A DNA stretch of 64,000 nucleotides from Naegleria gruberi (lineage: Eukaryota), in NCBI GenBank assembly GCA_000004985.1, contig GG738853.1; one strand, written 5' to 3'. Both the position numbers and the translations under genes were made by a program. Below the pieces are notes generated by a model. It worked only from the letters and a program-made list of their open reading frames with translations, searched no databases and was not told the DNA's origin. Shown here in pieces: positions 78 to 63,851 of the stretch (position 1 is its first letter; every line of letters begins with the position of its first letter).

Positions 78-3000
78 ATGTCAGATGGTTCAACATTGAA
101 AAGTGGCATGTCATTCACATCAAATGGTTTATTTACATTTTATCCAAATCCATCACAAATTGGTCAATTTAATATATTAAGAAATGTATCATATTATAAT
201 AGTGATAACAAGTTTACAATAATTTCACACACCATTACAATTCAAGTAATTTCATCACCTTCCAATAATGGTAATCAATTACAATTATTATTTTCAGATA
301 ATTTCACATTTAATTTATCAAATTGGAATTTAATTGATGGAACAATGAAATTACAATCAAATCAATTAAATTTATTCCAAAATAATACAATTTTAACAAG
401 TGTTAAATATTTTGATATTTTTAATAATAATAATAATGGTTTAACTTTTACTTTTAATTTATTAACTTCATGGACTTCTACAAGAGGTATATTACTATAT
501 ATAGATAAATTGAATTATTATGAAATTAATTTATCAAATTCACCTTTAACTATTAAACGTTATTTAAATGGTGAATTAACAATTGTATTACAAAGTACTA
601 AATTATTACAAGTTCATACTTCAAATTATTATTCAAGTTATAAATTATTTTTACAATTTACTAAAAATGGAATTTTAATCAATTTGGCTAAAATTGGAAC
701 ATTATCAAGTGATTATTATTTAAATGTAATTGATAATTTTACTAATATGGAATTATTTAAAAATATTAAATTTGGATTTTTTGATAAAAGTGCATCTTCA
801 CCAACTGTGTCCACTTTTAAAGTTTTACAATTTCAAGTTTTTAATGGAAAATTAATTCACACCAGACAAGCACAAACTTATCATGTTGATGCAACTAATG
901 GAAATGATTTAAATGATGGGTTAACAAAATCAACTGCTTTAAAAACATTAAATACAGCTCAATATCAATTATTACCTGATGATACTTTACTAGTTTATGA
1001 TTCTATTTATAGAGAAAGTTTCCAAATTAATAGAGAAGCATCAATTTATCATCCAATTACAATTAAAGCAGTTAATCAACCAACTACTACAACTACCACA
1101 TTTACAACAACACCATATACTCATACATCAATTATTGATGGTTCACTTGTATTAGATAATTCTAAATTAACTAAAATTAGTAATAGTAACATTTATCAAA
1201 CCTATATTAAATTTACACCAGATGTAGTTTATTTAAATGGTGTGAAAATGAGTTTAGCAATGAAACCACTTCCAGCTGATTTACAAGATGAATATTTTAC
1301 AGATAATTATATTCATCCATTAAATAATTCAAAATTTCATCTGATAATTTATTAATTTATTTAAAATTAGATGAAATGTTTAAATATGATTCATTTGGTA
1401 ATAGAGTTTCAGATAATTATTGGAATGGTGCTGATTTATATCATTATTATTATGGAGCTAATATTGTTTTCACACGTAGAATTTTATCTTACAATGCATC
1501 AACCAATACTATTGGAATGGAATATAGAGATTCTATATGGGGACAATTAATTATTTCAACAAGTGATTTCTATGCTATTGGTAATCATGTTGGTTGTTTT
1601 TCACAAGCTAATCAATATGTTTCCTCTAATAATCAAATATCAGTTTCATTGAGTAGTGATCCATATTATATTCAATCTAATTCTCTATTATTAGAAGTAT
1701 CATCTCTCTCGAATGGTATTAAATTTACAAATGGAATGGAAGGTATTAGAGTTCAAGGATTAATGATTAGAAAATTCACAAGTGATGGAATTCAATGTTC
1801 TTCTCAATGTAATAATATTGTTCAACTAAATATAATGGTGGATCAGGTGTCAGTTTCACATCCTCTCAAAACATACTCATTGATGGAGGTGAACATTCAC
1901 AAAATTTCAATAATGGAATTAATTTTGGAGGTGGAATGAAAGATTCAACTATTGAAAATTCCTACGTTCATGAAAATGTCAATAATGGTATTTGGGTAGG
2001 TAATGGTGGTTCCAATCTATTCTATTGTTGGAATATTCTATTAAAATCTAATAAGGTTGGACCACATTTTAGTCAACGTCTCCATCCAGATAATATTCAA
2101 TTAGCTAGTTCACATAATGTAACATTAGATTCTAATATTCTCATTCAATCAGGTGGTGATCAAAATATGTGGATGGAACAAAATGGTCTCGTCACATTTA
2201 AAAGAAATATTTTCATTAATGGACCACTTGGTTTAAATCATGCATTGAATTTAGTATTAATTAATAATATATTTTATCAATCATGGATGAGATATTCATT
2301 TAAATTTGAAAATTATGTTACTTATAGTTCACTTGTTGGTTTACAAAGTGTTTTAGATTGGAATCAAATGTTTAATAGTTTAAATAGTAGTACTACTACC
2401 ATTAATGGAAATGATTTACCTAATATACTTGTTTGGAAAGATTTAAATTTACAAATATCAAATAGAATTAAATCATATTCATCTTTTAATTTATTAACTA
2501 ATTCAGATAAAAATGATTTAATTAATCATTTAAATAATATTATTAATAATACTTTATTTATGAAAGAACATAAAGATTTAGTATTACCTTTATTAGGAAA
2601 ATCAAATGTTGCATATCCATATTGGACTGCAATTACTAAACGTGGATTATTAGATAATTCAACAGGTCAATTCAATTTAATGACAAGTGACATTTCAATC
2701 ATTGAAGAAGTTAGAGGTTTAACACGTGCTATTTTAGATGAATTAGTTTTTGATGGAATTTTATCAAAATCTTTAATGACATTTTATCCAAGAATTGTTT
2801 CAATTAAGAATAATGCATTTATTAATTCAAATTTACAATTACCAAATTCATCTTATAGTTTATTACCATATTGGGATTCAGATTTTAATTATATTGAACA
2901 AGGAACACCTTATCATGCAAATATTTGGAAAACATTGACTGGACCTAATACTATATTTGAAACATCATTGACCAATACTACTTTCTATTTTAAGAATATG

Positions 3001-3336
3001 ACATTGTATGATTTCCATTTAAATTGTAATAATCAAAATATTTCATTAATTGATAGAGGAATTAATGTTGGTGAATTTTATAATGATAAAGCACCTGACA
3101 TTGGTGCCTATGAATCTAATTGTAATAATAATAATTTAAATCCACAACCATCATCAACAACAAAACCTTCAACATCTGTAAATTCACCACAACCATCAAA
3201 ATCACCACAACCAAATAATTCAAAAATTGTTTCACTTGGTTCATCAATTAATGTTGGAGGAGGTATTGGTAGTGGTTTAATATTGATTGGATGGATAATG
3301 GTGATGATGGTTGTTGTACTCAACACAATGTTTTAA
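78..3336 (+). CDS. Large Asn/Ser/Thr-rich surface protein with parallel beta-helix (PbH1-like) repeats and a C-terminal membrane anchor. It reads as three ORF segments (78-1355, 1376-1939, 1936-3336) in three frames, so it is a frameshifted pseudogene or carries base-call errors.
   Basis: Three co-oriented ORFs abut with no GT..AG candidates at the frame breaks (one break lies near 1813-1834). Repeats of the form G-I-x-x-N-x-x-I-x-N-N occur (NGGSGVSFTSSQNILIDGGEHSQNFNNGINFGGG, NGIWVGNGGSNLFY). A Ser/Pro/Thr linker precedes the hydrophobic tail GLILIGWIMVMMVVVLNTMF. Confidence 0.45.
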
Positions 3337-5176: not shown

Positions 5177-5312
5177 TTTGAATAACTTGTAAATAATAAT
5201 AATAATAACAATCAATAACATTTGAAACTCTCTTTTAATTCATAAATTGGTCAATCGATTAAGAACAATGAATCCAATTAAAAACGTTTTAAACAATTCA
5301 ACAGTTAGAAAA

Positions 5313-5353: not shown

Positions 5354-8300
5354 ATGCAAACAAACGAAGGCTCGGGATCAGAAATGTCTTCTTCCTCATC
5401 ATCAACATCATCCGCTGCCCAACAACAACTGCAGCAACAAGAACAACAATATAACGAACAAGGTGAAGATTTTCCTTCTCTTTTTATTCGTGCTGCTTCC
5501 TTCTCCTCTTCATCAGAGTCTGACGACATAATTCCTAATCATCAACAACATACCACCCAACCAATCAAAACATATGAATCCAAGATTAATTATGAACATC
5601 AAATGGTAATTGATAATGAAGAATCGGAATTAAACTTATCGCCAAGGAGAAGTTCTAGAAAGAAAACGCCAAAAAAACAATTCAGTCCAACCCACAAAGA
5701 GCAATCTGATAAAAAAACTACACCTTCTAAAATACAGATTCCACCATCACCAATACAATCACAAGTTATTCAACATGATTATCCATTTGGAGAACCTTGG
5801 ACACAAGAAGAACTTTCAACTTTTTTAGAAGGGTTCAACAAGTATAAAACTGATTGGGGTATGATCAAACCACTTTTACCAAGTAGAAGTGTTTCTATGA
5901 TTAATTCACTTTACGAAACTCACAAAAGATTTATTGAAGCAGACTGTGGTTTAGATGTGAAAAAATTACAATTTCATGATATTCACTTGGATTACATATC
6001 ATTCAAACAACAACAAATGATTCCATCTCCTCAACCACAACAATTCCAACAACTTCCACCACAACCTATTCCACCAAGAGCAAAGAATTCTGCTAGAAAA
6101 CGTTTGCAAGATGAATTTGATGCCATCTCATCACCTAAGAAGAAAGGTTCACCAAGACAACGTTTTTCAAAAACCTCTAAAATAATACCTACCACCAGTA
6201 ATTCAAATACCCTAATTCCAAACTTTAAAAGAAAACAAAAAATAATAATGGAACAATTACCACTTGAAGTAATTGAATCATTCCAATCAGATTCAGATAC
6301 TGTAACATTAACAAGCTCTCAAAGTTCTCTTTCTGTTTCAAATACTGAAAGTCAACCAACTTCACCACCTCCACCACAATCCCTTCAATCTCCATTATCA
6401 CCAACAAGTGATCTTTCCTCTTTCACAGCAGCTATTGGAATGTTATCACCTGATAGTAAAAAGAATTATGAAAAGAACAAAATGTTACCAATCAAACTAA
6501 GAAAGAAGGGTACTCACGGTAATCCTTTGCTAAAATATATTCAAATTGCTAATGGAGATCAAAATGATACAGAATTGTTAGAATCAGCTCAAAATGCTGG
6601 AATGAAAATTGTAAAAATACTATCAAGAAAGAAAACAAGAACATTTTGCTCAAGTGAATGGTTTTACCCAACGATAGACTTTGGATTTTTCGAAAAGAAT
6701 GAATTTTTGGAATGCTTATCTTGCTTGGATGAACCATATAGAAATAGAAAATCCTTTAAAAAATCAGAACTTAAAGGTTTAAGAGCAGAAATGTGTAAAA
6801 AGTTTGGTAAACCAAGAAGATTTTCTCAAGCTTATTTAAAACAAGAAAGAGCCAAGCTGGAAATGAATAGAAGTTTTGCTAGAGAATACTATCAAAAGTT
6901 TAAACAAGTATATCAACTCTCTCAAGATAATCAACCATTTGTTCCTCCTCCAGTCATTATGGACTACCCACTTGTATCTGAACTTCAATTTATTGAAAGA
7001 TTGGCTGCTCCATTTAAAAAGAACGATCAAGTTTTGGTTTTAAATCCAGAAACCCAACATGTACAACTTGCTACAATAATGGATGATATTCCTCATTCAA
7101 AAACAGATTATAGAGTTAAATTTTTATACACTAAAGAGGAACGTATAGTCCAAGATACAGAAATTATGCAATTAGGAACTGTTTCAGTATTACCAGTTCA
7201 AAGAAGAGTACCAGAAATGTTCAGACCTGTCATTCAAGATGGAATTCTCCCACCACAAACTCCACCAAGAAAAAGCAATTATAGTTTCCTCTCAGGTGAT
7301 AATAATTTGAACAATAGTATGTTATCTGCATCCTCACCACATTCCCCATTCTTTTCGAATAATCATCCAATTTTCCAAAGTCCTCCGTCATCAGCCAATG
7401 ATATTCATGATAATGGGGCTTCATTACAAACCCCAACAAAGAAACAAAAACTGGATGGTGGGTTAATGTCACCAAGTAATATATTTGCAAGTCCAAATAT
7501 GGAGAGTCATGAATTTTCTAATCCATTATCCTCTCCACAACACGGATTTGCTCAAAATCAACCACCTCCAGTTATGGCTACTGGTATTGTTGATCTTTCA
7601 AATCCATCTCAAGAAGTTGTTAGAAATATTTCCAAATGCATATTTTTATTAAGAAAGAAACATGAACACATGGTATTATTTAAAAATTTGAATGAAAAGG
7701 CGAGACATGCCATGATGAAACACTCTTTAGCTATGGCCTCATCTAATACATCAGAAGAAGGATCAAGCTCTTCTGTGACTCCAATAATATTTCAAAAATC
7801 ATTCTGTATTGAATATACCAAATTGGTACTTGATTTGAGTAAGATTAATAATGAATTGGAAGTTTTATTACCTCAAGTTAGAAGCTACAGTTCAACTCCA
7901 AATTATGCAACAACTAATTATCCTATCCATAGTATTTTTTCTCAATCAATCACAAAACAATCAACTTTCCTTTTCCAAAAACAAACAAATGGACCAGCAA
8001 GACAACAAATGTGTCAAGATATATTTGAGTCAAATAGAAATCATGCTAAAGATATTGTAAATTGTGTAATGGCTCAATTATTAACACAACTTCCATCCAC
8101 TACCTCTGAAAATGGTAAAACACTTTCATCAAATGTTATACAAACATGTCATGGAAAGATTGGAGATTGTATTGCTTTACTATTGCATTTAAGAGCTTGT
8201 AGTATTAATCTTGGTATTTTAGAAAATAATGATATTGATCTAATGCTTGATGCTGGTTTAATGGCATTGAAAGAACCAAATCAATCTGATGAAATATCTC

Positions 8301-8356: not shown

Positions 8357-8380
8357 AAATTTGATGTCTTTTTAATTCTC

Positions 8381-8390
8381 TTCCCGCCAT
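8381..8390 (+). promoter_or_regulatory. TTCCCGCCAT motif about 80 bp upstream of the 8472 gene
   Basis: Identical decamer to the ones at 5313 and 14318. Confidence 0.3.
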
Positions 8391-25313: not shown

Positions 25314-26447
25314 TTATTGAATTGGAATGTATTCTTCTTCATGTTGTTGAGGTGGATGTTGTAGTGATGGAATAATTAGTGTTGAAATTGACTTGTTATT
25401 TTTATAATAATAAAATTGAATAGCAATAATAAAACTAAATAATAAAGTAAAAATACTTCCTAAAATGTAAGGAAATGTTGAAACTACATCCATTGTATTT
25501 GTAATATAAAATAATATTATACTTATTAAATACAATACTTGTGTTAATGTATCAATAATAAACATTAATAACTATAAATATATTTAATAATTAATCATAA
25601 TTAAATTAATTTTGTTAAAAATAATTAAATAAATAAATTTAAAACAAATTATTTCAAAACTTACAGATAAACCTTCAACACTCTTCTTTTTATAATTTTT
25701 AATAATTTGTGGAATGTATGCAATAATATAACAAGTACATGATATATATGAAATTATAATTCCAATTATATTTGCAATTTCATTATCATTATTAATAATT
25801 GAAGTATTACATAATTTTACAGTACTGCTACCATCACCACTACTACTACTAATAAATATATTAAAAAATAATAATAAAACAAATAAAGAAATAATCCAAT
25901 GTGAATTTAATTGATTATATTTTAATTGATTAAATTTTTTTAAAATAAAATTAAAAAATAAAATAAATAATTTTTCATAATAACAATATTGAGTAATAAT
26001 TAAAATATCCATAAAAACATAATAAATAGCTAAATATAATTGAGTAGGTAATTGATTTGTTAAAATACAACCAATTAAATTAGTAACATCACCAATCATC
26101 CAAATAAGGAATAAATAAATTGATAAACCTTTTGCAGATTTAAATACAAAATTTTTAATAACTTGTGGAAATAAACTAATCATACTTGTTAATATACTTA
26201 ATAATCCTAATATATAACTTGTTATTTCATTTGTTTCATAAAAACATTCTCTAAATATTAATGCAATAAATTCATTATAATGATTATTTCCTTTTTTAGT
26301 AGGTAAACATTGACATAAAAATGATGAAAATAATATTTCTTGATTATTTTCATTATTATTATTTAATAAAAATGTTTCATTATTAAATAATATAGGTAAT
26401 GATGATGATGATGATGAATAAAATGATAAAAATTGTTTACTATTCAT
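25314..26447 (-). CDS. PQ-loop repeat 7-TM transporter (PQLC2/LAAT-1/cystinosin family). Exons on the minus strand are 26447..25665 and 25571..25314.
   Basis: Two PQ-loops (LFPQVIKNFVFKSAKGLSIYLFLIWMIGD and YIPQIIKNYKKKSVEGLS) with seven hydrophobic helices. GTAAGT donor after ...GLS and a 93-nt intron. The ATG could also be 26501. Confidence 0.7.
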
Positions 26448-26497
26448 TTCAGTGCATTTTTTTAAAAAAATCTTTACAATAAAATTATTTTTTATTA

Positions 26498-27004
26498 TCA
26501 TAATATTATCATCAATATTATCATTAACATATTATTATTATTAGATATAATATTATTATTATTTTCAATATTAATAGTAAAATCATCATGATAATAAGGA
26601 CCAAATAAATCTCTAAATAAAGCATATGAACATAATTTAGTAGTATAATATGTTTTTAAATAAAAATTAGATAATGGTAATGATATTTGATAAAATAAAA
26701 ATCCAAATGTTAATCCAGTTGATATTTGTGTTAGAGTATTAATATATTTATTAGATATCTTTTTAAATGATTTTTGAAATATAAATAAAGATGAAAATGT
26801 TCCGATTATTGAAAATGGATATTTAATTAATGTTGAATATCCATCTTGTGGTATTTTAATCATTAATGATGTTAAATAGGCTCTTTTTGTATATTTATAT
26901 TTACTATTATTATTATTATTATTATTATTGGATGATGATGATGGTATTGTTGTTGTTATTGATGATGATTTGAGTTGTTGTTGTGTAGTTGAATTATTTT
27001 CCAT
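26498..27004 (-). CDS. Hypothetical 168-aa ORF with two hydrophobic segments; either a separate gene or a 5' exon of the PQ-loop gene
   Basis: ORF with a poly-Asn tract. Its start is only 55 bp downstream of the PDE stop and its stop overlaps the PQ-loop ORF by 4 nt in another frame. Confidence 0.3.
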   Translation of the reverse strand: MENNSTTQQQLKSSSITTTIPSSSSNNNNNNNNSKYKYTKRAYLTSLMIKIPQDGYSTLIKYPFSIIGTFSSLFIFQKSFKKISNKYINTLTQISTGLTFGFLFYQISLPLSNFYLKTYYTTKLCSYALFRDLFGPYYHDDFTINIENNNNIISNNNNMLMIILMIIL

Positions 27005-39381: not shown

Positions 39382-39990
39382 ATGAGTGAATCTGAATTTA
39401 CACAACAACAAGAAGACCAAATTCTTGAACAATTCTCCAAGTTGCAACAAGAATACAACAACTTTGCCTCCACTGTGGCAAGAATTGAATTGGAAGTTAG
39501 AGATCATGGGTATGTTTGATCATCATAGGTGGAAAAATAATTTATTAAATTGTATAATTTAGTTCCGTTATTTCTGCTCTCAAGGAATTGGATGGTGATA
39601 GAAAATGTTTTAGAGTTGTCGGAGGTGTTTTAGTTGAACGAACAATCAAAGAAGTTATTCCAGCCGTCGAAGGTAATTTGGAAAATGTAAGTTTATAATA
39701 TCAATGAAAAAGATAATTGAAATATGTCTTCGTCGTCATCATCTTACTATTTGTCATCATCAATCTTTCCTGATAATAATTGAAAATGATAATAATAATA
39801 ATATGGACGCACTTGAAAATTCGGAATTATTTAGCTTGAACTCACTGAAAAGAAATTAAAACAAGATTTAGAAGATAAAGAATTAGAATTACTTGCATTC
39901 AAGGAAAAGTACAAGATTAAATTTAAACATGAAGCTATTGCTGAAACTGAAAGAAAGAGTACTGGTAAATCAAGTGGAGTTTTAGCCTAA
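39382..39990 (+). CDS. pfdn2: Prefoldin subunit 2. Exons are 39382..39509, 39563..39686 and 39835..39990.
   Basis: The spliced product is MSESEFTQQQEDQILEQFSKLQQEYNNFASTVARIELEVRDHG-SVISALKELDGDRKCFRVVGGVLVERTIKEVIPAVEGNLEN-LELTEKKLKQDLEDKELELLAFKEKYKIKFKHEAIAETERKSTGKSSGVLA. Human PFDN2 matches at RKCYRMVGGVLVERTVKEVLPALE. Canonical GT..AG junctions. Confidence 0.8.
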
Positions 39991-39994
39991 AAAA

Positions 39995-40264
39995 ATGTCT
40001 CAACAAAATAAATCAGAATTTGATCAAGAAATTGAACAACAAGGAGGTTTTATTGTTCCATTCGAGGAAAAGAAAAGAAATAGAACACAATTATGTAATT
40101 TAGAAGAAGATGCTCTTCAAGTTTGTGTTTTAAATAATAGAGGTATTGTCGGATGTGAAAAGGAAATTGAAAAATTTAATAATTGTAGAATGAAGGAATT
40201 TGCAAAACAATCAAGAGAAGAAAATAGAAAATTGGAAAGAGAACATTCTGCAAGAAAAAGATAA
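39995..40264 (+). CDS. Twin Cx9C (CHCH-fold) small protein, probably of the mitochondrial intermembrane space
   Basis: CNLEEDALQVC and CEKEIEKFNNC, each with exactly 9 residues between the cysteines. 89 aa. The ATG lies 4 bp after the pfdn2 stop. Confidence 0.55.
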   Translation: MSQQNKSEFDQEIEQQGGFIVPFEEKKRNRTQLCNLEEDALQVCVLNNRGIVGCEKEIEKFNNCRMKEFAKQSREENRKLEREHSARKR

Positions 40265-40306
40265 TTTATTTACAATGAATCGATGAAGGGGAATATACAC
40301 ATTAAT

Positions 40307-41734
40307 TTAAACATTTCTTACAACAAAGTCAATAGCATCGGCTACATATTCAACATTCTTTCTATTTAAACCACACATACTAATTCTACCATTATCAGTA
40401 AGATAAATATGGTATTTTTCAATCAAGACAGCAACGTGTTTCTTTTGAAGACCAGTGAATGAAAACATGCCAATTTGTTCAAGAATGTGATTCCAATTAC
40501 CTGGTGTATTTCTCTTCTTGAGGGCATCAAAAAGTAATTGTCTCATTTCCTTAATTCTGTCACTCATCATGATTAATTCCTTCTTCCATTCAGCAAAATA
40601 TTCAGGATTACTTAAAGTCATTGCAACAATTCTAGCACCTTGCAATGGTGGTGATGAATATAAACATCTGACAATAACCTTCATTTGTGATTGAATTTGC
40701 TTGGCAGTTTCAACATTATTTACAACAATGTTCAATGCACCAATTCTTTCACCATATAAACCAAAATTCTTGGCATAACTTTGAGATGCCAACATTTCAA
40801 TACCACGATCAACAAACATTCTAATAGCAGCAGCATCCTTATCCAAATCACCACTTGCAAATCCTTGATAAGCACTATCAAAGAAAGTAAAGTGACCCTT
40901 TTCTTGCATAACATCAGCAATGATTGACCATTGTTCTGGAGTTGGATCAACACCTGTTGGATTGTGAGCACAAGAGTGCAAAAGAACGACTGACTTGTTT
41001 GGAATTGTCTTTAAATCATGAATCATATCATTGAAAGCCAATCCATTTGTCTTATTATCGAAATATCTGTAATATCCAACTGGAACACCAGCAGATTGAC
41101 AAATTTGAATGTGATTAATCCAAGTTGGATTACTAACATATAAGGCAGTACCAGCAGGTAAAAACTTGGCAATAAATTCAATTCCCAATCTCAATGCACC
41201 TGTACCAGAGATTGATTGCACACAAACAATACGACCTTCTTGGAGGGCCTTGCAGTTTTCTCCGAACATTAATTTTGGTGAGACTTTTTTGAATGCTTCC
41301 AAACCATCTTGTGGAATGTATTCCTTGTCCAAGTTTTGTTCGAGGATCTTTTGTTCAACCTTCTTAACAACATTTAAAACCAATGGTTTACCTTCTTCTG
41401 TTCTATAAGCACCAACACCAAGATTAACCTTGCTTGGACTTGTATCTTCTTTGAATGCTTCACTTAAACCCAAGATTGGATCTCTAGGAGCAGTAGGAAT
41501 GGTACCGAAAATGCTTGTCATTTTGTTAGAAGCTGCTGTTGTGTTACTATACAAAAATGATTGTTGCTCGTAGTCAATGCTATCAGAGAGGAGTGATTTT
41601 TTTTGATTAAGAAAATCAAGGCTGGAAGAACTATTAATACTCTCATCATGACTTAAACTTCCTGGTGCGATATGATGAGCGATCATTTCAATTCTCCTGT
41701 TAGAGTTGTTATTGTTATTACTTTGATTGACCAT
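40307..41734 (-). CDS. Aspartate aminotransferase (class I aminotransferase). The longest ORF is 475 aa; the conserved start is the internal Met at 41518 (MTSIFGTIPTAPRDPILGL), giving a cytosolic-type enzyme.
   Basis: NLGVGAYR, SYAKNFGLYGERIGAL (PLP-Lys region) and the family-wide alignment. The upstream 72 codons are Asn/Ser-rich. Confidence 0.8.
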   Translation of the reverse strand: MVNQSNNNNNSNRRIEMIAHHIAPGSLSHDESINSSSSLDFLNQKKSLLSDSIDYEQQSFLYSNTTAASNKMTSIFGTIPTAPRDPILGLSEAFKEDTSPSKVNLGVGAYRTEEGKPLVLNVVKKVEQKILEQNLDKEYIPQDGLEAFKKVSPKLMFGENCKALQEGRIVCVQSISGTGALRLGIEFIAKFLPAGTALYVSNPTWINHIQICQSAGVPVGYYRYFDNKTNGLAFNDMIHDLKTIPNKSVVLLHSCAHNPTGVDPTPEQWSIIADVMQEKGHFTFFDSAYQGFASGDLDKDAAAIRMFVDRGIEMLASQSYAKNFGLYGERIGALNIVVNNVETAKQIQSQMKVIVRCLYSSPPLQGARIVAMTLSNPEYFAEWKKELIMMSDRIKEMRQLLFDALKKRNTPGNWNHILEQIGMFSFTGLQKKHVAVLIEKYHIYLTDNGRISMCGLNRKNVEYVADAIDFVVRNV

Positions 41735-61043: not shown

Positions 61044-61337
61044 TCATTCAATTGAAATTTCTTTAACTCTTTCTTTAATTTCTGGTTCATCAATTCTTGG
61101 AATTTTCACACTCAAAGTTCCTTCATCTGAAAGAGTTGCTTTAACTTTATCCAAATCAAGCGAACCCTTTGGAAATCTGAAAGATTTAGAGAATTGGAAA
61201 TGACCATTTTCTGTTTTCTTTTCAGCACTAACTGTAATCAAATCACCAAGTGAATTTTCCTTAATCTTTACCTCAATATCTTTCTTTTCAAACACATCTC
61301 TTGGAATATTATTAATATCAAGTGAGAGCTCATCCAT
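61044..61337 (-). CDS. Small heat-shock protein alpha-crystallin domain (HspG-like family)
   Basis: MDELSLDINNIPRDVFEKKDIEVKIKENSLGDLITVSAEKKTENGHFQFSKSFRFPKGSLDLDKVKATLSDEGTLSVKIPRIDEPEIKERVKEISIE matches the ACD consensus (G.F.R.F.LP...D...V.A.L.DGVL.V..PK). Confidence 0.65.
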   Translation of the reverse strand: MDELSLDINNIPRDVFEKKDIEVKIKENSLGDLITVSAEKKTENGHFQFSKSFRFPKGSLDLDKVKATLSDEGTLSVKIPRIDEPEIKERVKEISIE

Positions 61338-61950
61338 CTTGATTAATAGTTCTAATCACAGATGAAATTGGACCTCTACGTCTCAATGGCTTATCAGTAG
61401 ATGTTTCTCTCATTGAAGAACTTTCACTTGATGATGAAGATGAAGAGCTGATACTCTTTTGAGCATTATTATTCATAGAATTGAAAGAATTGGTATAATC
61501 TTCCCACCATTGATGATCATCAAAGAGGGAAGGCAACATGTTTGATCTTCTCATCATGTTATTCATTCTTCTTCTCATGGAATTGAAAGATTCATCAAAG
61601 TTAGAAAAAGGTGATGATTGAAACCATTGATTATCAAACCAATCATTCTGATATCCTTGGTTCAATCCTTTCATAACATTTTTCCAAATATTCTTCTTTG
61701 ATTTCTTCCTTGATAACTTTTTAGATTTCTCTTCTGTTTTAATATTTAATTGAGGATTTGATGAGGAAGAGTATTTACCAGATTGATCATGATCTGGTAA
61801 TGGTGTTGTTGATTGTCCCTCCTTCTCAACACGTACCTCTTCCTCTGCTGTTATAAGGGAAATATCCAAACAATAAACAATGAAGAGTACTGCAAGTAGA
61901 CTTGAAATGATTACTGTTGTTTTGAATTGTTGTTGATTAATCTTCATCAT
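61330..61950 (-). CDS. ORF with an N-terminal signal/anchor and a W/F-rich region like a sHSP N-terminal arm. Its stop overlaps the sHSP ORF start by 8 nt in another frame, so it is possibly the frameshifted 5' part of the same gene.
   Basis: MMKINQQQFKTTVIISSLLAVLFIVYCLDISL..., WFDNQWFQSSPFSNFDESF, ending RRRGPISSVIRTINQDG*. Confidence 0.4.
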   Translation of the reverse strand: MMKINQQQFKTTVIISSLLAVLFIVYCLDISLITAEEEVRVEKEGQSTTPLPDHDQSGKYSSSSNPQLNIKTEEKSKKLSRKKSKKNIWKNVMKGLNQGYQNDWFDNQWFQSSPFSNFDESFNSMRRRMNNMMRRSNMLPSLFDDHQWWEDYTNSFNSMNNNAQKSISSSSSSSSESSSMRETSTDKPLRRRGPISSVIRTINQDG

Positions 61951-62824: not shown

Positions 62825-62948
62825 AATAAACGTTAATATTTCAATAAACGTAAATAAACTTAAAAAGACGTTACTATTTGTAATTATTTGATATAAATAA
62901 ACGTAAATAAATGTAAATAAACGTAAATAAATGTAAATAAATGTAAAG
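62825..62948. repeat. Minisatellite, 10-bp unit AAATAAA(C/T)GT, about 5 clean and several degenerate copies
   Basis: aaataaacgt aaataaatgt aaataaacgt aaataaatgt aaataaatgt. Confidence 0.7.
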
Positions 62949-62961
62949 TCATGAAAATAGT

Positions 62962-63851
62962 TTATTTTTCTTCTGCAAAAAGCTTTTTCAATTCTTCTTT
63001 GATAGCAGCGTGTTCTATTTTATCTTGTATTTCTAGTTTCTCTCGTCTTTTAGTGATATAGGAAGATACTTTAATAGATAATGCCTCTATTTCACCGAAT
63101 TGGTTTTCTAACAATTCCATCTTTTTCTTATTTTCTGTAATAATCTTTTGATAAAATTGCATACAATACTCATAAAAACCTTCTTCTAGCTCAACTTTTC
63201 TTTTTAAAGCATCTCTTTCTTCTCTATCTGAAAGAATATCTGTTAATTCTTGTAAAAGTAATGAAGTTTCTGACATAGTATAATCGTTTTGTTCATTATC
63301 TGTCTTGATAGCTTTAACAGCTTTCTTTGATAATTCCTTCACATTAATTGCATCTACTTTTCTTTTGGTTGATGGAGATCTATTTACCAAAGTTTCGTCA
63401 CTGGTTGGAATTATGGTAGTGGTACTTGGTTTGTTAAGAAGAACTGTTGTTGGCGGGCTGCAATCAATAATAAATGACTCATTAACTTTAGAACTTTTCA
63501 TAGGAGTTCTTTCTATAATTGAAACTTGCTTATCATCATCACTTCTCCACAAATAATTACTTAAATTGCACATTCCTGAATCAATAAAGCATTCTACAGC
63601 ATCATTAATATCGCTGGAATACAAATTTCATTTGATGACTCCTTCTTATTCATTGAATCTTTTAATAAAGTTACTAGTGTTTCCGATTTAGAAAAGTGTA
63701 TTTGATTATTGATACAATTAACAATACACTTTCTAATCGATGAAGTTGTTGTTGTTGTTGTTGATGTTGTTGGGGTTGATGTTGTTGTTATTGATGAAGT
63801 TGTGTTTTGATGGTCCTGTTTTTGTTTTTTGCGTTTGGGTTGTTTAAGCAT
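62962..63851 (-). CDS. Hypothetical protein read as two overlapping ORFs (63594-63851 and 62962-63624) in different frames; poly-Thr tract and C-terminal coiled coil
   Basis: MLKQPKRKKQKQ...TTSTTTTTTSS... then ...EERDALKRKVELEEGFYEYCMQFYQKIITENKKKMELLENQFGEIEALSIKV; the 31-nt overlap implies a frame break. Confidence 0.4.

What the first reader, a model, noticed from the sequence alone, without database searches (positions are those of the whole stretch)
39382..40264. Prefoldin-2 and a twin-Cx9C gene separated by 4 bp on the same strand
The pfdn2 TAA is at 39988-39990 and the Cx9C ATG at 39995. Intergenic regions normally run to hundreds of bp, so this implies a dicistronic transcript (reinitiation), alternative use of one locus, or an annotation subtlety. 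Small mitochondrial Cx9C proteins are among the known partners in eukaryotic bicistronic genes. The AAT gene then ends 43 bp after the Cx9C stop on the other strand.
Basis: seen in the sequence. Interest (0 to 1): 0.55.

Follow-up and report, generated by a model that had tools for sequence, protein, structure and literature searches.

The report
Two amoeba genes four bases apart
In the amoeba Naegleria gruberi, a chaperone gene (prefoldin subunit 2) ends 4 bases before an unannotated small mitochondrial-type protein gene starts, and related amoebae keep the same 3-13 base gap, so the two genes must share RNA in some way that sequence alone cannot settle.

Summary
The window is Naegleria gruberi NEG-M.

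- **pfdn2:** three exons, 135 aa, ending at TAA 39988-39990.
- **Second ORF:** an 89-aa twin-Cx9C ORF starts at ATG 39995 on the same strand, 4 nt later.
- **Annotation:** the public pfdn2 model is truncated inside intron 2, and the Cx9C gene is not annotated.
- **The Cx9C ORF is a real gene:** dN/dS is 0.13-0.20 between genera, and the two Willaertia copies show no amino-acid change.
- **Conservation:** the gap is 3 nt in N. lovaniensis and 8 and 13 nt in the two Willaertia magna copies. Other same-strand gene pairs are at least 41 nt apart.
- **Age:** a more distant relative has the Cx9C gene without pfdn2 upstream, so the juxtaposition arose later.

Tested and rejected: leaky scanning, readthrough or frameshift fusion, spliced fusion, and a structured RNA element or TURBS motif.

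An AAUAAA sits 17-23 nt after the pfdn2 stop, inside the Cx9C ORF, in all four loci. This hexamer is avoided in N. gruberi coding sequence. It is probably the pfdn2 poly(A) signal.

Two mechanisms remain about equally likely:
- a read-through dicistronic mRNA with short-range termination-reinitiation (0.42);
- a separate Cx9C start site inside pfdn2 (0.40).

Published nanopore RNA data (GSE260731) could decide between them. Interest is moderate.

The parts
39382..39509 (+). pfdn2 exon 1 (start codon in the context AAATTAAAAAATG)
   Evidence: It is identical to residues 1-43 of the N. gruberi reference model XP_002680452.1.
39510..39562 (+). pfdn2 intron 1 (GTATGT...TTTAG, 53 nt)
   Evidence: An intron is found at the same position in N. 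lovaniensis and W. magna.
39563..39686 (+). pfdn2 exon 2
39687..39834 (+). pfdn2 intron 2 (GTAAGT...TTTAG, 148 nt). The reference model reads into it and stops at VSL*.
   Evidence: The intron position is conserved in the orthologues.
39835..39990 (+). pfdn2 exon 3, ending with the conserved C-terminus SSGVLA and the stop TAA at 39988-39990
   Evidence: C-terminal motif shared with animal PFDN2; orthologues P0002, P0004, P0005.
39991..39994 (+). Inter-ORF spacer AAAA. Together with the stop codon it forms TAAAAAAATG, the ordinary A-run start context of this genome.
   Evidence: The orthologous spacers are 3, 8 and 13 nt.
39995..40264 (+). Unannotated twin-Cx9C gene (89 aa; C34/C44/C54/C64), stop TAA at 40262-40264
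   Evidence: Purifying selection is shown. The AF2 model is a helical hairpin. The family has 10 representatives.
40007..40012 (+). AATAAA at codons 5-6 (N-K) of the Cx9C ORF, 17 nt after the pfdn2 stop. It is the probable pfdn2 poly(A) signal, with predicted cleavage near 40025-40035.
   Evidence: conserved at +17/+19/+18/+23; the hexamer is about 9-fold rarer in coding sequence than in non-coding sequence. (the relative without pfdn2 uses AATAAG). (PMC11529991). (no U-rich downstream element).
40265..40274 (-). TGTAAATAAA on the minus strand: UGUA plus AAUAAA, the predicted poly(A) signal of the AAT gene. It abuts the Cx9C stop codon.
   Evidence: TGTA upstream; T fraction 0.55 downstream.
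40307..41734 (-). Aspartate aminotransferase gene, convergent with the Cx9C gene and 42 nt away
   Evidence: It is an exact match to XP_002680594.1.

Best explanation
**What it is.** pfdn2 and the twin-Cx9C gene form one conserved, physically overlapping expression unit.

**Proposed mechanism (inferred).**
- Transcription from the pfdn2 promoter gives two products by alternative polyadenylation.
- Most transcripts are cut about 15-20 nt after the AAUAAA at 40007-40012. This gives a monocistronic pfdn2 mRNA whose roughly 40-nt 3' UTR is the first part of the Cx9C ORF.
- This signal has no U-rich downstream element. Some transcripts therefore read through and carry both ORFs.
- On read-through mRNAs, ribosomes finishing pfdn2 at UAA restart at the AUG 3-13 nt downstream. 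That AUG lies in an unstructured A-run with the genome's normal start context. This is short-range termination-reinitiation.
- The expected result is a small, fixed fraction of Cx9C protein per prefoldin subunit.

**Shown.**
- Both genes are real, and the gap is conserved in four loci.
- The AAUAAA is conserved and is an otherwise avoided hexamer in coding sequence.
- The junction is unstructured.
- pfdn2 is neither AUG-poor nor weakly initiated.

**Inferred.** The transcripts themselves, use of the poly(A) signal, and reinitiation.
For: **The spacer is far below the range of other gene pairs.**
- The spacer is 4, 3, 8 and 13 nt in N. gruberi, N. lovaniensis and the two W. magna copies.
- Annotated same-strand gaps in the related loci are 41-1119 nt.
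- In the window, ORF gaps not attributable to split genes are 55 nt or more and cluster near 100 nt.
- In the same lineages the neighbouring Cx9C-AAT gap ranges from 5 to 240 nt. The pfdn2-Cx9C gap therefore looks more constrained than its neighbour.

**The spacer cannot hold normal signals.** The median N. gruberi 3' UTR is 39 nt, and AAUAAA lies 15-20 nt before the cleavage site (PMC11529991). A 4-nt spacer cannot hold a 3' end plus a promoter.

**The conserved AAUAAA.**
- It lies +17 to +23 nt from the pfdn2 stop in all four loci.
- It occurs at 0.29 per kb in the window's long ORFs against 2.7 per kb per strand outside them.
- Only 9 of 51 N-K codon pairs use it, where codon usage predicts 56%.
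- The relative that lacks pfdn2 upstream encodes the same N-K as AATAAG.
- The downstream T fraction is 0.20-0.28, against a median of about 0.40 at other presumed signals. This suggests a leaky signal.

**The junction suits restart.** It is unstructured (z = +0.89; consensus energy -1.1 kcal/mol). The AUG has the standard A-run context.

**The relative frame varies.** This is expected for independent initiation and not for a fusion protein.

**Precedent.** Reinitiation is favoured by spacers of a few nucleotides (PMC11291117).
Against: - No transcript, ribosome or protein data were available.
- Reinitiation after a 135-codon ORF is normally inefficient in eukaryotes (discussed in PMC11291117).
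- No TURBS motif 1 (UGGGA) and no conserved structure is present.
- An AAUAAA just inside ORF 2 works against making a dicistronic mRNA. In N. gruberi the hexamer is reported to be the main determinant of cleavage.
- Heterolobosea are regarded as monocistronic, and I found no report of bicistronic genes in Naegleria.
- The two Willaertia copies already differ by 5 nt in the spacer. Spacers of 3-13 nt could therefore partly reflect slow drift near a lower bound rather than selection.
- Four other ORF pairs 20 nt apart or closer in the window could not be resolved. The uniqueness of this pair is therefore not proven.
Confidence: 0.42

Rival explanations
1. **Overlapping but separate transcription units.** The Cx9C mRNA starts at its own site inside pfdn2, in exon 3 or intron 2, possibly close to the TAAAAAAATG element. 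pfdn2 mRNAs end at the AAUAAA inside the Cx9C ORF. Each protein comes from its own capped monocistronic mRNA, and the Cx9C transcript bypasses the AAUAAA because it lies very close to the cap.
For: - Intergenic space in this genome is very small: same-strand gaps are commonly about 100 nt, and 41 nt occurs in W. magna with AATAAA overlapping the upstream stop. Promoters plus 5' UTRs must therefore be tiny or embedded in the upstream gene.
- The spacer plus stop codon forms TAAAAAAA. This 8-mer is found upstream of 8 of 26 gene starts against 2 of 26 gene ends. The Cx9C start therefore looks like any independent gene start.
- The conserved AAUAAA fits a pfdn2 mRNA that ends independently.
- In a more distant relative (L004) the Cx9C gene stands alone, 100 nt from a divergent gene. 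It can therefore run from a minimal promoter.
- From general knowledge, transcripts that start inside upstream genes are common in compact eukaryotic genomes.
Against: - No conserved nucleotide block beyond coding constraint is visible in the 3' part of pfdn2.
- No promoter motif could be defined.
- It does not explain why the spacer stays at 3-13 nt when the neighbouring gap varies from 5 to 240 nt, and when N. lovaniensis intergenic regions are otherwise 100-480 nt.
- If promoters were readily embedded in coding sequence, gaps between 13 and 41 nt should occur. None was seen in about 30 pairs.
Confidence: 0.4
2. **Dicistronic mRNA read by leaky scanning**, as in green-algal polycistronic genes. 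Some 40S subunits skip the pfdn2 AUG and scan through to the Cx9C AUG.
For: This is the mechanism shown for green-algal bicistronic loci (PMC7896298, PMC11291117).
Against: - The pfdn2 AUG is in the genome's consensus A-run context (AAAAAATGA).
- The spliced pfdn2 ORF holds 4-7 internal AUGs in the four loci, several with A at -3. There is no depletion against synonymous shuffles.
- ORF 1 is 408 nt, not short.
Confidence: 0.04
3. **One protein from both ORFs.** A prefoldin-Cx9C fusion would be made by stop-codon readthrough, by frameshifting on the A-run, or by alternative splicing from exon 2 to the TTTTAG at 39980-39985.
For: - In N. lovaniensis the two ORFs are in frame (TAA AAA ATG).
- In N. 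gruberi, exon 2 (phase 0) joined after AG 39985 would read PKK-MSQQ... in frame.
- The A7 run is potentially slippery.
Against: - Gap mod 3 is 1, 0, 2 and 1 in the four loci, so no single recoding event is conserved.
- The splice would be out of frame in N. lovaniensis (8 nt before the ATG) and would meet a stop in W. magna (CAT AAA TAA) (sequences).
- The conserved PFDN2 C-terminus ends exactly at the stop codon.
- The Cx9C protein begins with a conserved M-S in all loci.
Confidence: 0.02
4. **The downstream ORF is not a gene.** It would be a chance ORF lying in the pfdn2 3' UTR.
For: It is absent from the N. gruberi and N. lovaniensis annotations. Its Pfam CHCH score is below the cut-off.
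Against: - Amino-acid identity is 60-73% across species while synonymous sites are saturated, with dN/dS 0.13-0.20.
- The two W. magna copies show no nonsynonymous change against pS 0.28.
- All four cysteines are invariant in 12 family members.
- Homologues exist in unrelated genomic contexts.
- The AF2 model is a confident helical hairpin.
Confidence: 0.01

Closest known systems
Conserved dicistronic transcripts that carry a twin-Cx9C ORF: plant homology group HG8 (At3g12010) and Drosophila CG9865 (PMC3426882, PMC2276209)
   Same: A small twin-Cx9C (CHCH) protein is encoded on the same strand, tightly linked to an unrelated larger gene. The pairing is conserved across species, and the Cx9C gene stands free in some other taxa (compare L004 here).
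   Different: - In those cases the Cx9C ORF is the 5'-proximal short ORF, so ordinary scanning reaches it first. Here it is the downstream ORF, after a 135-codon ORF with a spacer of only 3-13 nt.
- The partner gene is different.
- Homology between this Cx9C family and HG8 was not tested.
Green-algal polycistronic genes (Chlamydomonas, Chromochloris, Auxenochlorella; PMC7896298, PMC11291117)
   Same: These are nuclear loci with two independent ORFs in variable relative frames, unusually short inter-ORF distances, conservation between species and small ORFs. Some loci have overlapping stop and start codons.
   Different: - The algal loci work by leaky scanning: ORF 1 is short (median about 291 nt in A. 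protothecoides), has a weak start context and few AUGs, and the median spacer is 40-183 nt.
- Here ORF 1 has a consensus start context and 4-7 internal AUGs.
- Co-transcription is proven by long reads in the algae and is unproven here.
Viral coupled termination-reinitiation (hypovirus CHV1 UAAUG, PMC2699510; caliciviruses and influenza B from general knowledge)
   Same: A long upstream ORF is followed by a restart codon overlapping or within a few nucleotides of the stop codon, with no fixed frame relation.
   Different: - The viral systems depend on an upstream element (TURBS, with UGGGA pairing to 18S rRNA) or on specific structures.
- No UGGGA occurs in the last 160 nt of pfdn2 in any of the four loci, and no conserved structure was found.
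- This is a cellular locus, and it has a poly(A) hexamer just inside ORF 2.
Overlapping transcription units of compact eukaryotic genomes (microsporidia, nucleomorphs, Giardia; from general knowledge, not checked here)
   Same: The 3' end of one gene's mRNA lies inside the next gene, and start sites lie inside the upstream gene. This would match the predicted pfdn2 poly(A) signal inside the Cx9C ORF.
   Different: The Naegleria genome is not that compact overall: typical same-strand gaps are about 100-500 nt. This pair is an outlier rather than the rule.

Membership tests
Prefoldin subunit 2 (beta-type prefoldin) | Pfam Prefoldin_2 (PF01920) match above the gathering score | tested here: met
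   76.5 bits against a cut-off of 27.6, E = 1.8e-21, residues 13-115.
Prefoldin subunit 2 (beta-type prefoldin) | Closest named relatives are PFDN2, and the PFDN2-type C-terminus is shared | tested here: met
   Hits are named prefoldin subunit 2 in Naegleria, Exaiptasia and Centruroides. The C-terminal SSGVLA aligns with SSGVLV/SSGVLA in other PFDN2 proteins.
Twin-Cx9C (CHCH) proteins of the mitochondrial intermembrane space | Two Cx9C motifs | tested here: met
   C34-x9-C44 and C54-x9-C64. All four cysteines are invariant in 12 family members.
Twin-Cx9C (CHCH) proteins of the mitochondrial intermembrane space | Antiparallel helix-loop-helix hairpin, with each helix carrying one Cx9C motif | tested here: met
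   The AF2 model has helices 35-48 and 55-88 with pLDDT 84-93. The Foldseek PDB matches are CHCH-type mitochondrial proteins (mS37, complex I and complex III subunits), but all have E > 1.
Twin-Cx9C (CHCH) proteins of the mitochondrial intermembrane space | Pfam CHCH (PF06747) match above the gathering score | tested here: not met
   14.8 bits against a cut-off of 27.2. The best family member reaches 18.7 bits. The protein is therefore filed by motif and fold, not by profile.
Twin-Cx9C (CHCH) proteins of the mitochondrial intermembrane space | Intermembrane-space location and oxidative import | not testable with these tools
   No localisation data are available. The mitochondrial assignment is an inference from the motif.
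NDUFB7 / B18 subunit of complex I | Significant match to the Pfam NDUF_B7 profile or to a solved NDUFB7 chain | tested here: not met
   NDUF_B7 scores 14.1 bits against a cut-off of 26, and only for the W. magna orthologue. The PDB profile search gives E = 0.86-1.5 over about 21 residues. This is a weak lead only.
Dicistronic gene translated by termination-reinitiation | Both ORFs are present on one mature capped mRNA | not testable with these tools
   No RNA data could be reached. The supplements of PMC11529991 are not held.
Dicistronic gene translated by termination-reinitiation | The stop codon of ORF 1 and the start codon of ORF 2 overlap or lie within a few nucleotides | tested here: met
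   Spacers of 4, 3, 8 and 13 nt in four loci.
Dicistronic gene translated by termination-reinitiation | An upstream ribosome-tethering element (TURBS motif 1, UGGGA) or a conserved structure | tested here: not met
   No TGGGA occurs in the last 160 nt of pfdn2 in any locus. The consensus structure energy is -1.1 kcal/mol and the fold z-score is +0.89.
Leaky-scanning polycistronic genes (green-algal type) | Weak start context at ORF 1, and an ORF 1 depleted of AUG triplets | tested here: not met
   The start context is the consensus A-run. There are 4-7 internal AUGs with no depletion against synonymous shuffles.
Overlapping transcription units (3' end of gene 1 inside gene 2) | The poly(A) signal of the upstream gene lies inside the downstream ORF | tested here: inconclusive
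   AATAAA is conserved at +17 to +23 nt in four loci, in a genome that avoids the hexamer in coding sequence. The relative without pfdn2 uses AATAAG instead. Actual use of the signal was not observed, and there is no U-rich downstream element.

The most novel reading that the evidence does not exclude
This would be a genuine cellular termination-reinitiation dicistron in a heterolobosean. After translating a full-length 135-codon ORF, ribosomes would restart 3-13 nt downstream without any TURBS-like element. Output would be set by a leaky poly(A) signal embedded in the second ORF. It would be the first polycistronic protein-coding mRNA in Heterolobosea, the sister group of Euglenozoa, where polycistrony is universal. 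It would also be a rare natural case of efficient restart after a long ORF.
Probability: 0.35. Interest if true: 0.7.

Novelty: new member of a known kind. Interest (0 to 1): 0.45.

Why it matters
**Annotation, regardless of mechanism.**
- The result corrects the N. gruberi reference annotation: the pfdn2 model is truncated and the Cx9C gene is missing.
- It defines a small, previously unnamed family of twin-Cx9C proteins.

**If the dicistronic reading is right.**
- It gives a simple natural system, conserved across genera, for studying restart of translation after a long ORF.
- It shows that polycistronic mRNAs exist in the sister lineage of the Euglenozoa.

**If the nested-promoter reading is right.**
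- It shows how far transcription units can interpenetrate in Naegleria. One gene's poly(A) signal would be written in the next gene's codons, and a promoter would lie in coding sequence.
- That matters for gene finding and for designing expression constructs in Naegleria.

Both readings can be tested with RNA data that already exist.

Tried and rejected
**Mechanisms tested and rejected.**
- **Leaky scanning.** The pfdn2 start context is the consensus, and pfdn2 has 4-7 internal AUGs with no depletion.
- **Readthrough or frameshift fusion.** The relative frame differs in the four loci.
- **Alternative-splice fusion via the TTTTAG at 39980-39985.** It is in frame only in N. gruberi.
- **IRES or structured element.** No conserved structure was found, the junction folds less well than shuffled sequence, and there is no meaningful Rfam match.
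- **TURBS motif.** Absent.
- **Chance ORF.** Rejected by purifying selection and by the existence of homologues.

**Assigning the Cx9C protein to a named family failed.**
- Pfam, two PDB profile searches, an AF2 model with Foldseek, and a profile search of the large protein collection gave nothing significant.
- Only weak resemblance to CHCH and NDUFB7 appeared.

**Searches that found nothing.**
- Two metagenome scans for more pfdn2-Cx9C loci.
- The DNA of the 634-nt contig encoding P0001 could not be fetched.
- Per-gene 3' UTR tables of the N. gruberi direct-RNA study are not held.
- A promoter motif search in 26 upstream regions found only the A-run.
- Literature searches for bicistronic or polycistronic genes in Naegleria found no report.

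**Other ORF pairs 20 nt apart or closer in the window.**
- One pair is clearly split by an intron.
- The others have no canonical intron and no Pfam match.
- With one exception (62962-63573), they are not stand-alone reference proteins.
- They remain unresolved.
Full report
**Observation**

- A three-exon gene (39382-39509, 39563-39686, 39835-39990; GT..AG introns) encodes a 135-aa protein. It matches Pfam Prefoldin_2 at 76.5 bits against a cut-off of 27.6.
- Its stop codon TAA is at 39988-39990. After the spacer AAAA (39991-39994), an ATG at 39995 opens an 89-aa ORF that ends at 40264.
- That ORF has cysteines arranged C34-x9-C44 and C54-x9-C64. The two ORFs are in different frames.
- The convergent aminotransferase gene (40307-41734, minus strand) lies 42 nt beyond the Cx9C stop, not 43.

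**Source and annotation**

- The aminotransferase ORF is identical to XP_002680594.1 of Naegleria gruberi NEG-M.
- The prefoldin protein is identical over exons 1-2 to the reference model XP_002680452.1. That model then reads into intron 2 and stops (VSL*), so it is truncated.
- Exon 3 is real. The N. lovaniensis and Willaertia magna orthologues have it, and its C-terminal SSGVLA aligns with the C-terminus of animal PFDN2.
- The UniProt identifiers of the two reference proteins are consecutive (D2V5T3, D2V5T4), and the exact Cx9C protein is not on record. The Cx9C gene is therefore unannotated in N. gruberi.
- It is also uncalled in N. lovaniensis. In W. magna it is called as a hypothetical protein.

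**The downstream ORF is a gene**

- Orthologues are 60-73% identical in protein.
- Synonymous sites between genera are saturated, with dN/dS of 0.13-0.20. The two W. magna copies differ at 28% of synonymous sites and at no nonsynonymous site.
- A profile search of 1.8 billion representative proteins found only ten members, all small proteins of 74-146 aa. The four cysteines are invariant.
- None reaches a Pfam cut-off, and none carries a functional name.
- AlphaFold predicts a helical hairpin (helices 35-48 and 55-88, pLDDT 84-93).
- Structure and sequence searches of the PDB give only sub-threshold resemblance to CHCH-type mitochondrial proteins: mS37, NDUFB7 and the complex III hinge protein.
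- I file it as a twin-Cx9C protein by motif and fold, of an unnamed family. A mitochondrial location is an inference.

**Conservation of the juxtaposition**

| Locus | Junction | Spacer |
|---|---|---|
| N. gruberi | TAA-AAAA-ATG | 4 nt |
| N. lovaniensis | TAA-AAA-ATG | 3 nt |
| W. magna copy 1 | TAA-ATAAAAAA-ATG | 8 nt |
| W. magna copy 2 | TAA-GCCTATAAAAAAA-ATG | 13 nt |

- These junctions are read.
- Introns and upstream flanks of the same loci cannot be aligned even between the two Willaertia copies.
- Same-strand gaps between other annotated genes in the related loci are 41-1119 nt.
- In the window, gaps that are not obviously split genes are 55 nt or more and cluster near 100 nt.
- The adjacent Cx9C-aminotransferase gap varies from 5 to 240 nt in the same lineages.
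- In two uncultured relatives (L004, L005) the Cx9C gene is again convergent with the aminotransferase gene. In L004 the upstream neighbour is a divergent gene 100 nt away, not pfdn2.
- The Cx9C-aminotransferase pairing is therefore older. The pfdn2 juxtaposition arose in the lineage leading to Naegleria and Willaertia.
- Two further homologues (L007, L008) show no synteny.

**What the spacing implies**

- In N. gruberi the median 3' UTR is 39 nt, AAUAAA is the dominant poly(A) signal, and it lies 15-20 nt before the cleavage site (PMC11529991).
- A 4-nt spacer cannot hold a 3' end and a promoter.
- Any RNA encoding the Cx9C protein must therefore start inside or upstream of pfdn2. The pfdn2 mRNA must in turn end inside or beyond the Cx9C ORF.

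**A probable poly(A) signal inside the second ORF**

- AATAAA occurs 17, 19, 18 and 23 nt after the pfdn2 stop in the four loci. In each it encodes the N-K at codons 5-6 of the Cx9C protein.
- The hexamer is strongly avoided in N. gruberi coding sequence. It occurs at 0.29 per kb in the window's long ORFs against 2.7 per kb per strand elsewhere.
- Only 9 of 51 N-K codon pairs use it, where codon usage predicts 56%. This agrees with the published depletion.
- The one relative without pfdn2 upstream encodes the same N-K as AATAAG.
- Cleavage 15-20 nt downstream would give pfdn2 a 3' UTR of about 40 nt, the species median.
- The site lacks the U-rich downstream element seen at other presumed signals. 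Its T fraction is 0.20-0.28, against a median near 0.40. It may therefore be leaky.
- Use of this site is inferred, not observed.

**Mechanisms tested and rejected**

- **Leaky scanning.** pfdn2 starts in the consensus A-run context. It contains 4-7 internal AUGs with no depletion.
- **Fusion by readthrough or frameshift.** The spacer length modulo 3 is 1, 0, 2 and 1.
- **Spliced fusion.** A splice from exon 2 to the TTTTAG just before the stop would be in frame only in N. gruberi.
- **Structured element.** There is no conserved RNA structure, the junction folds less well than shuffled sequence (z = +0.89), and there is no Rfam match of note. The UGGGA motif of viral reinitiation elements is also absent.

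**The two remaining explanations**

- **(a) Read-through dicistronic mRNA.**
  - Ribosomes terminating at the pfdn2 UAA restart at the AUG 3-13 nt away.
  - The embedded AAUAAA diverts most transcripts to a short pfdn2 mRNA.
  - In favour: the spacer is constrained far below the range of normal gene pairs, while neighbouring gaps vary freely. The junction is unstructured and A-rich, which suits short-range restart.
  - Against: restart after 135 codons is normally inefficient (PMC11291117). A poly(A) hexamer inside ORF 2 also works against dicistronic RNA.
- **(b) Nested Cx9C start site inside pfdn2.**
  - This gives two overlapping monocistronic mRNAs.
  - In favour: intergenic space in these amoebae is tiny. 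The stop codon plus spacer reads TAAAAAAA, the element typical of gene starts here (8 of 26 upstream regions against 2 of 26 downstream). The Cx9C gene also works alone from a 100-nt region in L004.
  - Against: nothing in this model explains the constrained spacer, and no conserved non-coding signal is visible in the pfdn2 3' exon.

I rate (a) at 0.42 and (b) at 0.40. The sequence cannot separate them.

**Comparison with what is known**

- Twin-Cx9C ORFs are known partners in conserved dicistronic transcripts of plants and flies (PMC3426882, PMC2276209). There they are the upstream ORF.
- Green-algal polycistronic genes use leaky scanning, with short, AUG-poor first ORFs (PMC7896298, PMC11291117).
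- Viral termination-reinitiation has the same stop-start geometry but depends on tethering elements that are absent here.
- Heterolobosea are treated as monocistronic, and I found no report of bicistronic genes in Naegleria.
- The locus is best called a new member of known kinds: tightly linked, overlapping eukaryotic gene pairs, and twin-Cx9C proteins. If (a) holds, it has an unusual configuration.

**Verdict**

- The dicistronic interpretation is plausible but unproven.
- Interest is moderate (0.45). It would rise to about 0.7 if reinitiation were shown.
- The published direct-RNA data set GSE260731 and a 5' RACE would settle the question.

Noticed in passing
window 39687-39698 and 39835-39990: The N. 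gruberi reference protein for pfdn2 (XP_002680452.1, 87 aa) reads through the exon 2 donor into intron 2 (VSL*). It lacks exon 3, so the public model is truncated.
   Followed up: yes
window 40245-40309; L003 6778-6788; L004 1828-1893; L005 305-386: The Cx9C gene and the aspartate aminotransferase gene are convergent in every related locus, with stops 5-240 nt apart. In N. gruberi the aminotransferase signal TGTAAATAAA (minus strand, 40274-40265) abuts the Cx9C stop. Predicted cleavage falls inside the last Cx9C codons, so the two mRNAs should overlap antisense at their 3' ends.
   Followed up: partly
L001 6787-6792; L002 6586-6591; L003 6607-6612: N. lovaniensis and W. magna carry a second AATAAA about 90-95 nt after the pfdn2 stop, at the N-K-T codons 29-31 of the Cx9C ORF. 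N. gruberi has AATAGA there. In N. lovaniensis none of 7 other N-K codon pairs sampled uses this hexamer.
   Followed up: partly
L002 5950-6003: In one W. magna copy a Homeobox_KN gene ends only 41 nt before the pfdn2 ATG, with AATAAA overlapping its stop codon. This shows how little same-strand intergenic space these amoebae can work with.
   Followed up: no
window 78-3336 (+); 25584-27004 (-); 61044-61950 (-); 62962-63851 (-): Several other same-strand ORF pairs abut within 20 nt or overlap by 4-8 nt (ATGA-type). One involves an ORF holding only an HSP20 domain. I found no canonical GT[AT]NGT...AG intron joining them, and most are not stand-alone reference proteins. They may be split genes, assembly frameshifts or further tight pairs.
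   Followed up: partly
window 25566-25583 region (minus strand, PQ-loop gene 25314-26501): A clear 93-nt GTAAGT...TTATAG intron joins ORF 26501-25584 (PQ-loop repeats) to ORF 25565-25314. This pair is a single gene.
   Followed up: yes
window about 5290-5300 and about 8380-8390: The motif TTCCCGCC(A) occurs about 60-90 nt upstream of the start codons at 5354 and 8472. It resembles an E2F-type site (from memory). No statistics were run.
   Followed up: no
window about 62900-62960 (minus strand, downstream of ORF 62962-63573): A short tandem repeat of about 10 nt (TTTATTTACR, at least 5 copies) lies directly after the stop codon of ORF 62962-63573.
   Followed up: no
L005 1-18: The Logan contig begins with an Illumina adapter remnant (CGTGTGCTCTTCCGATCT). 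Its first bases are not genomic, and the upstream neighbour of that Cx9C homologue cannot be read.
   Followed up: no
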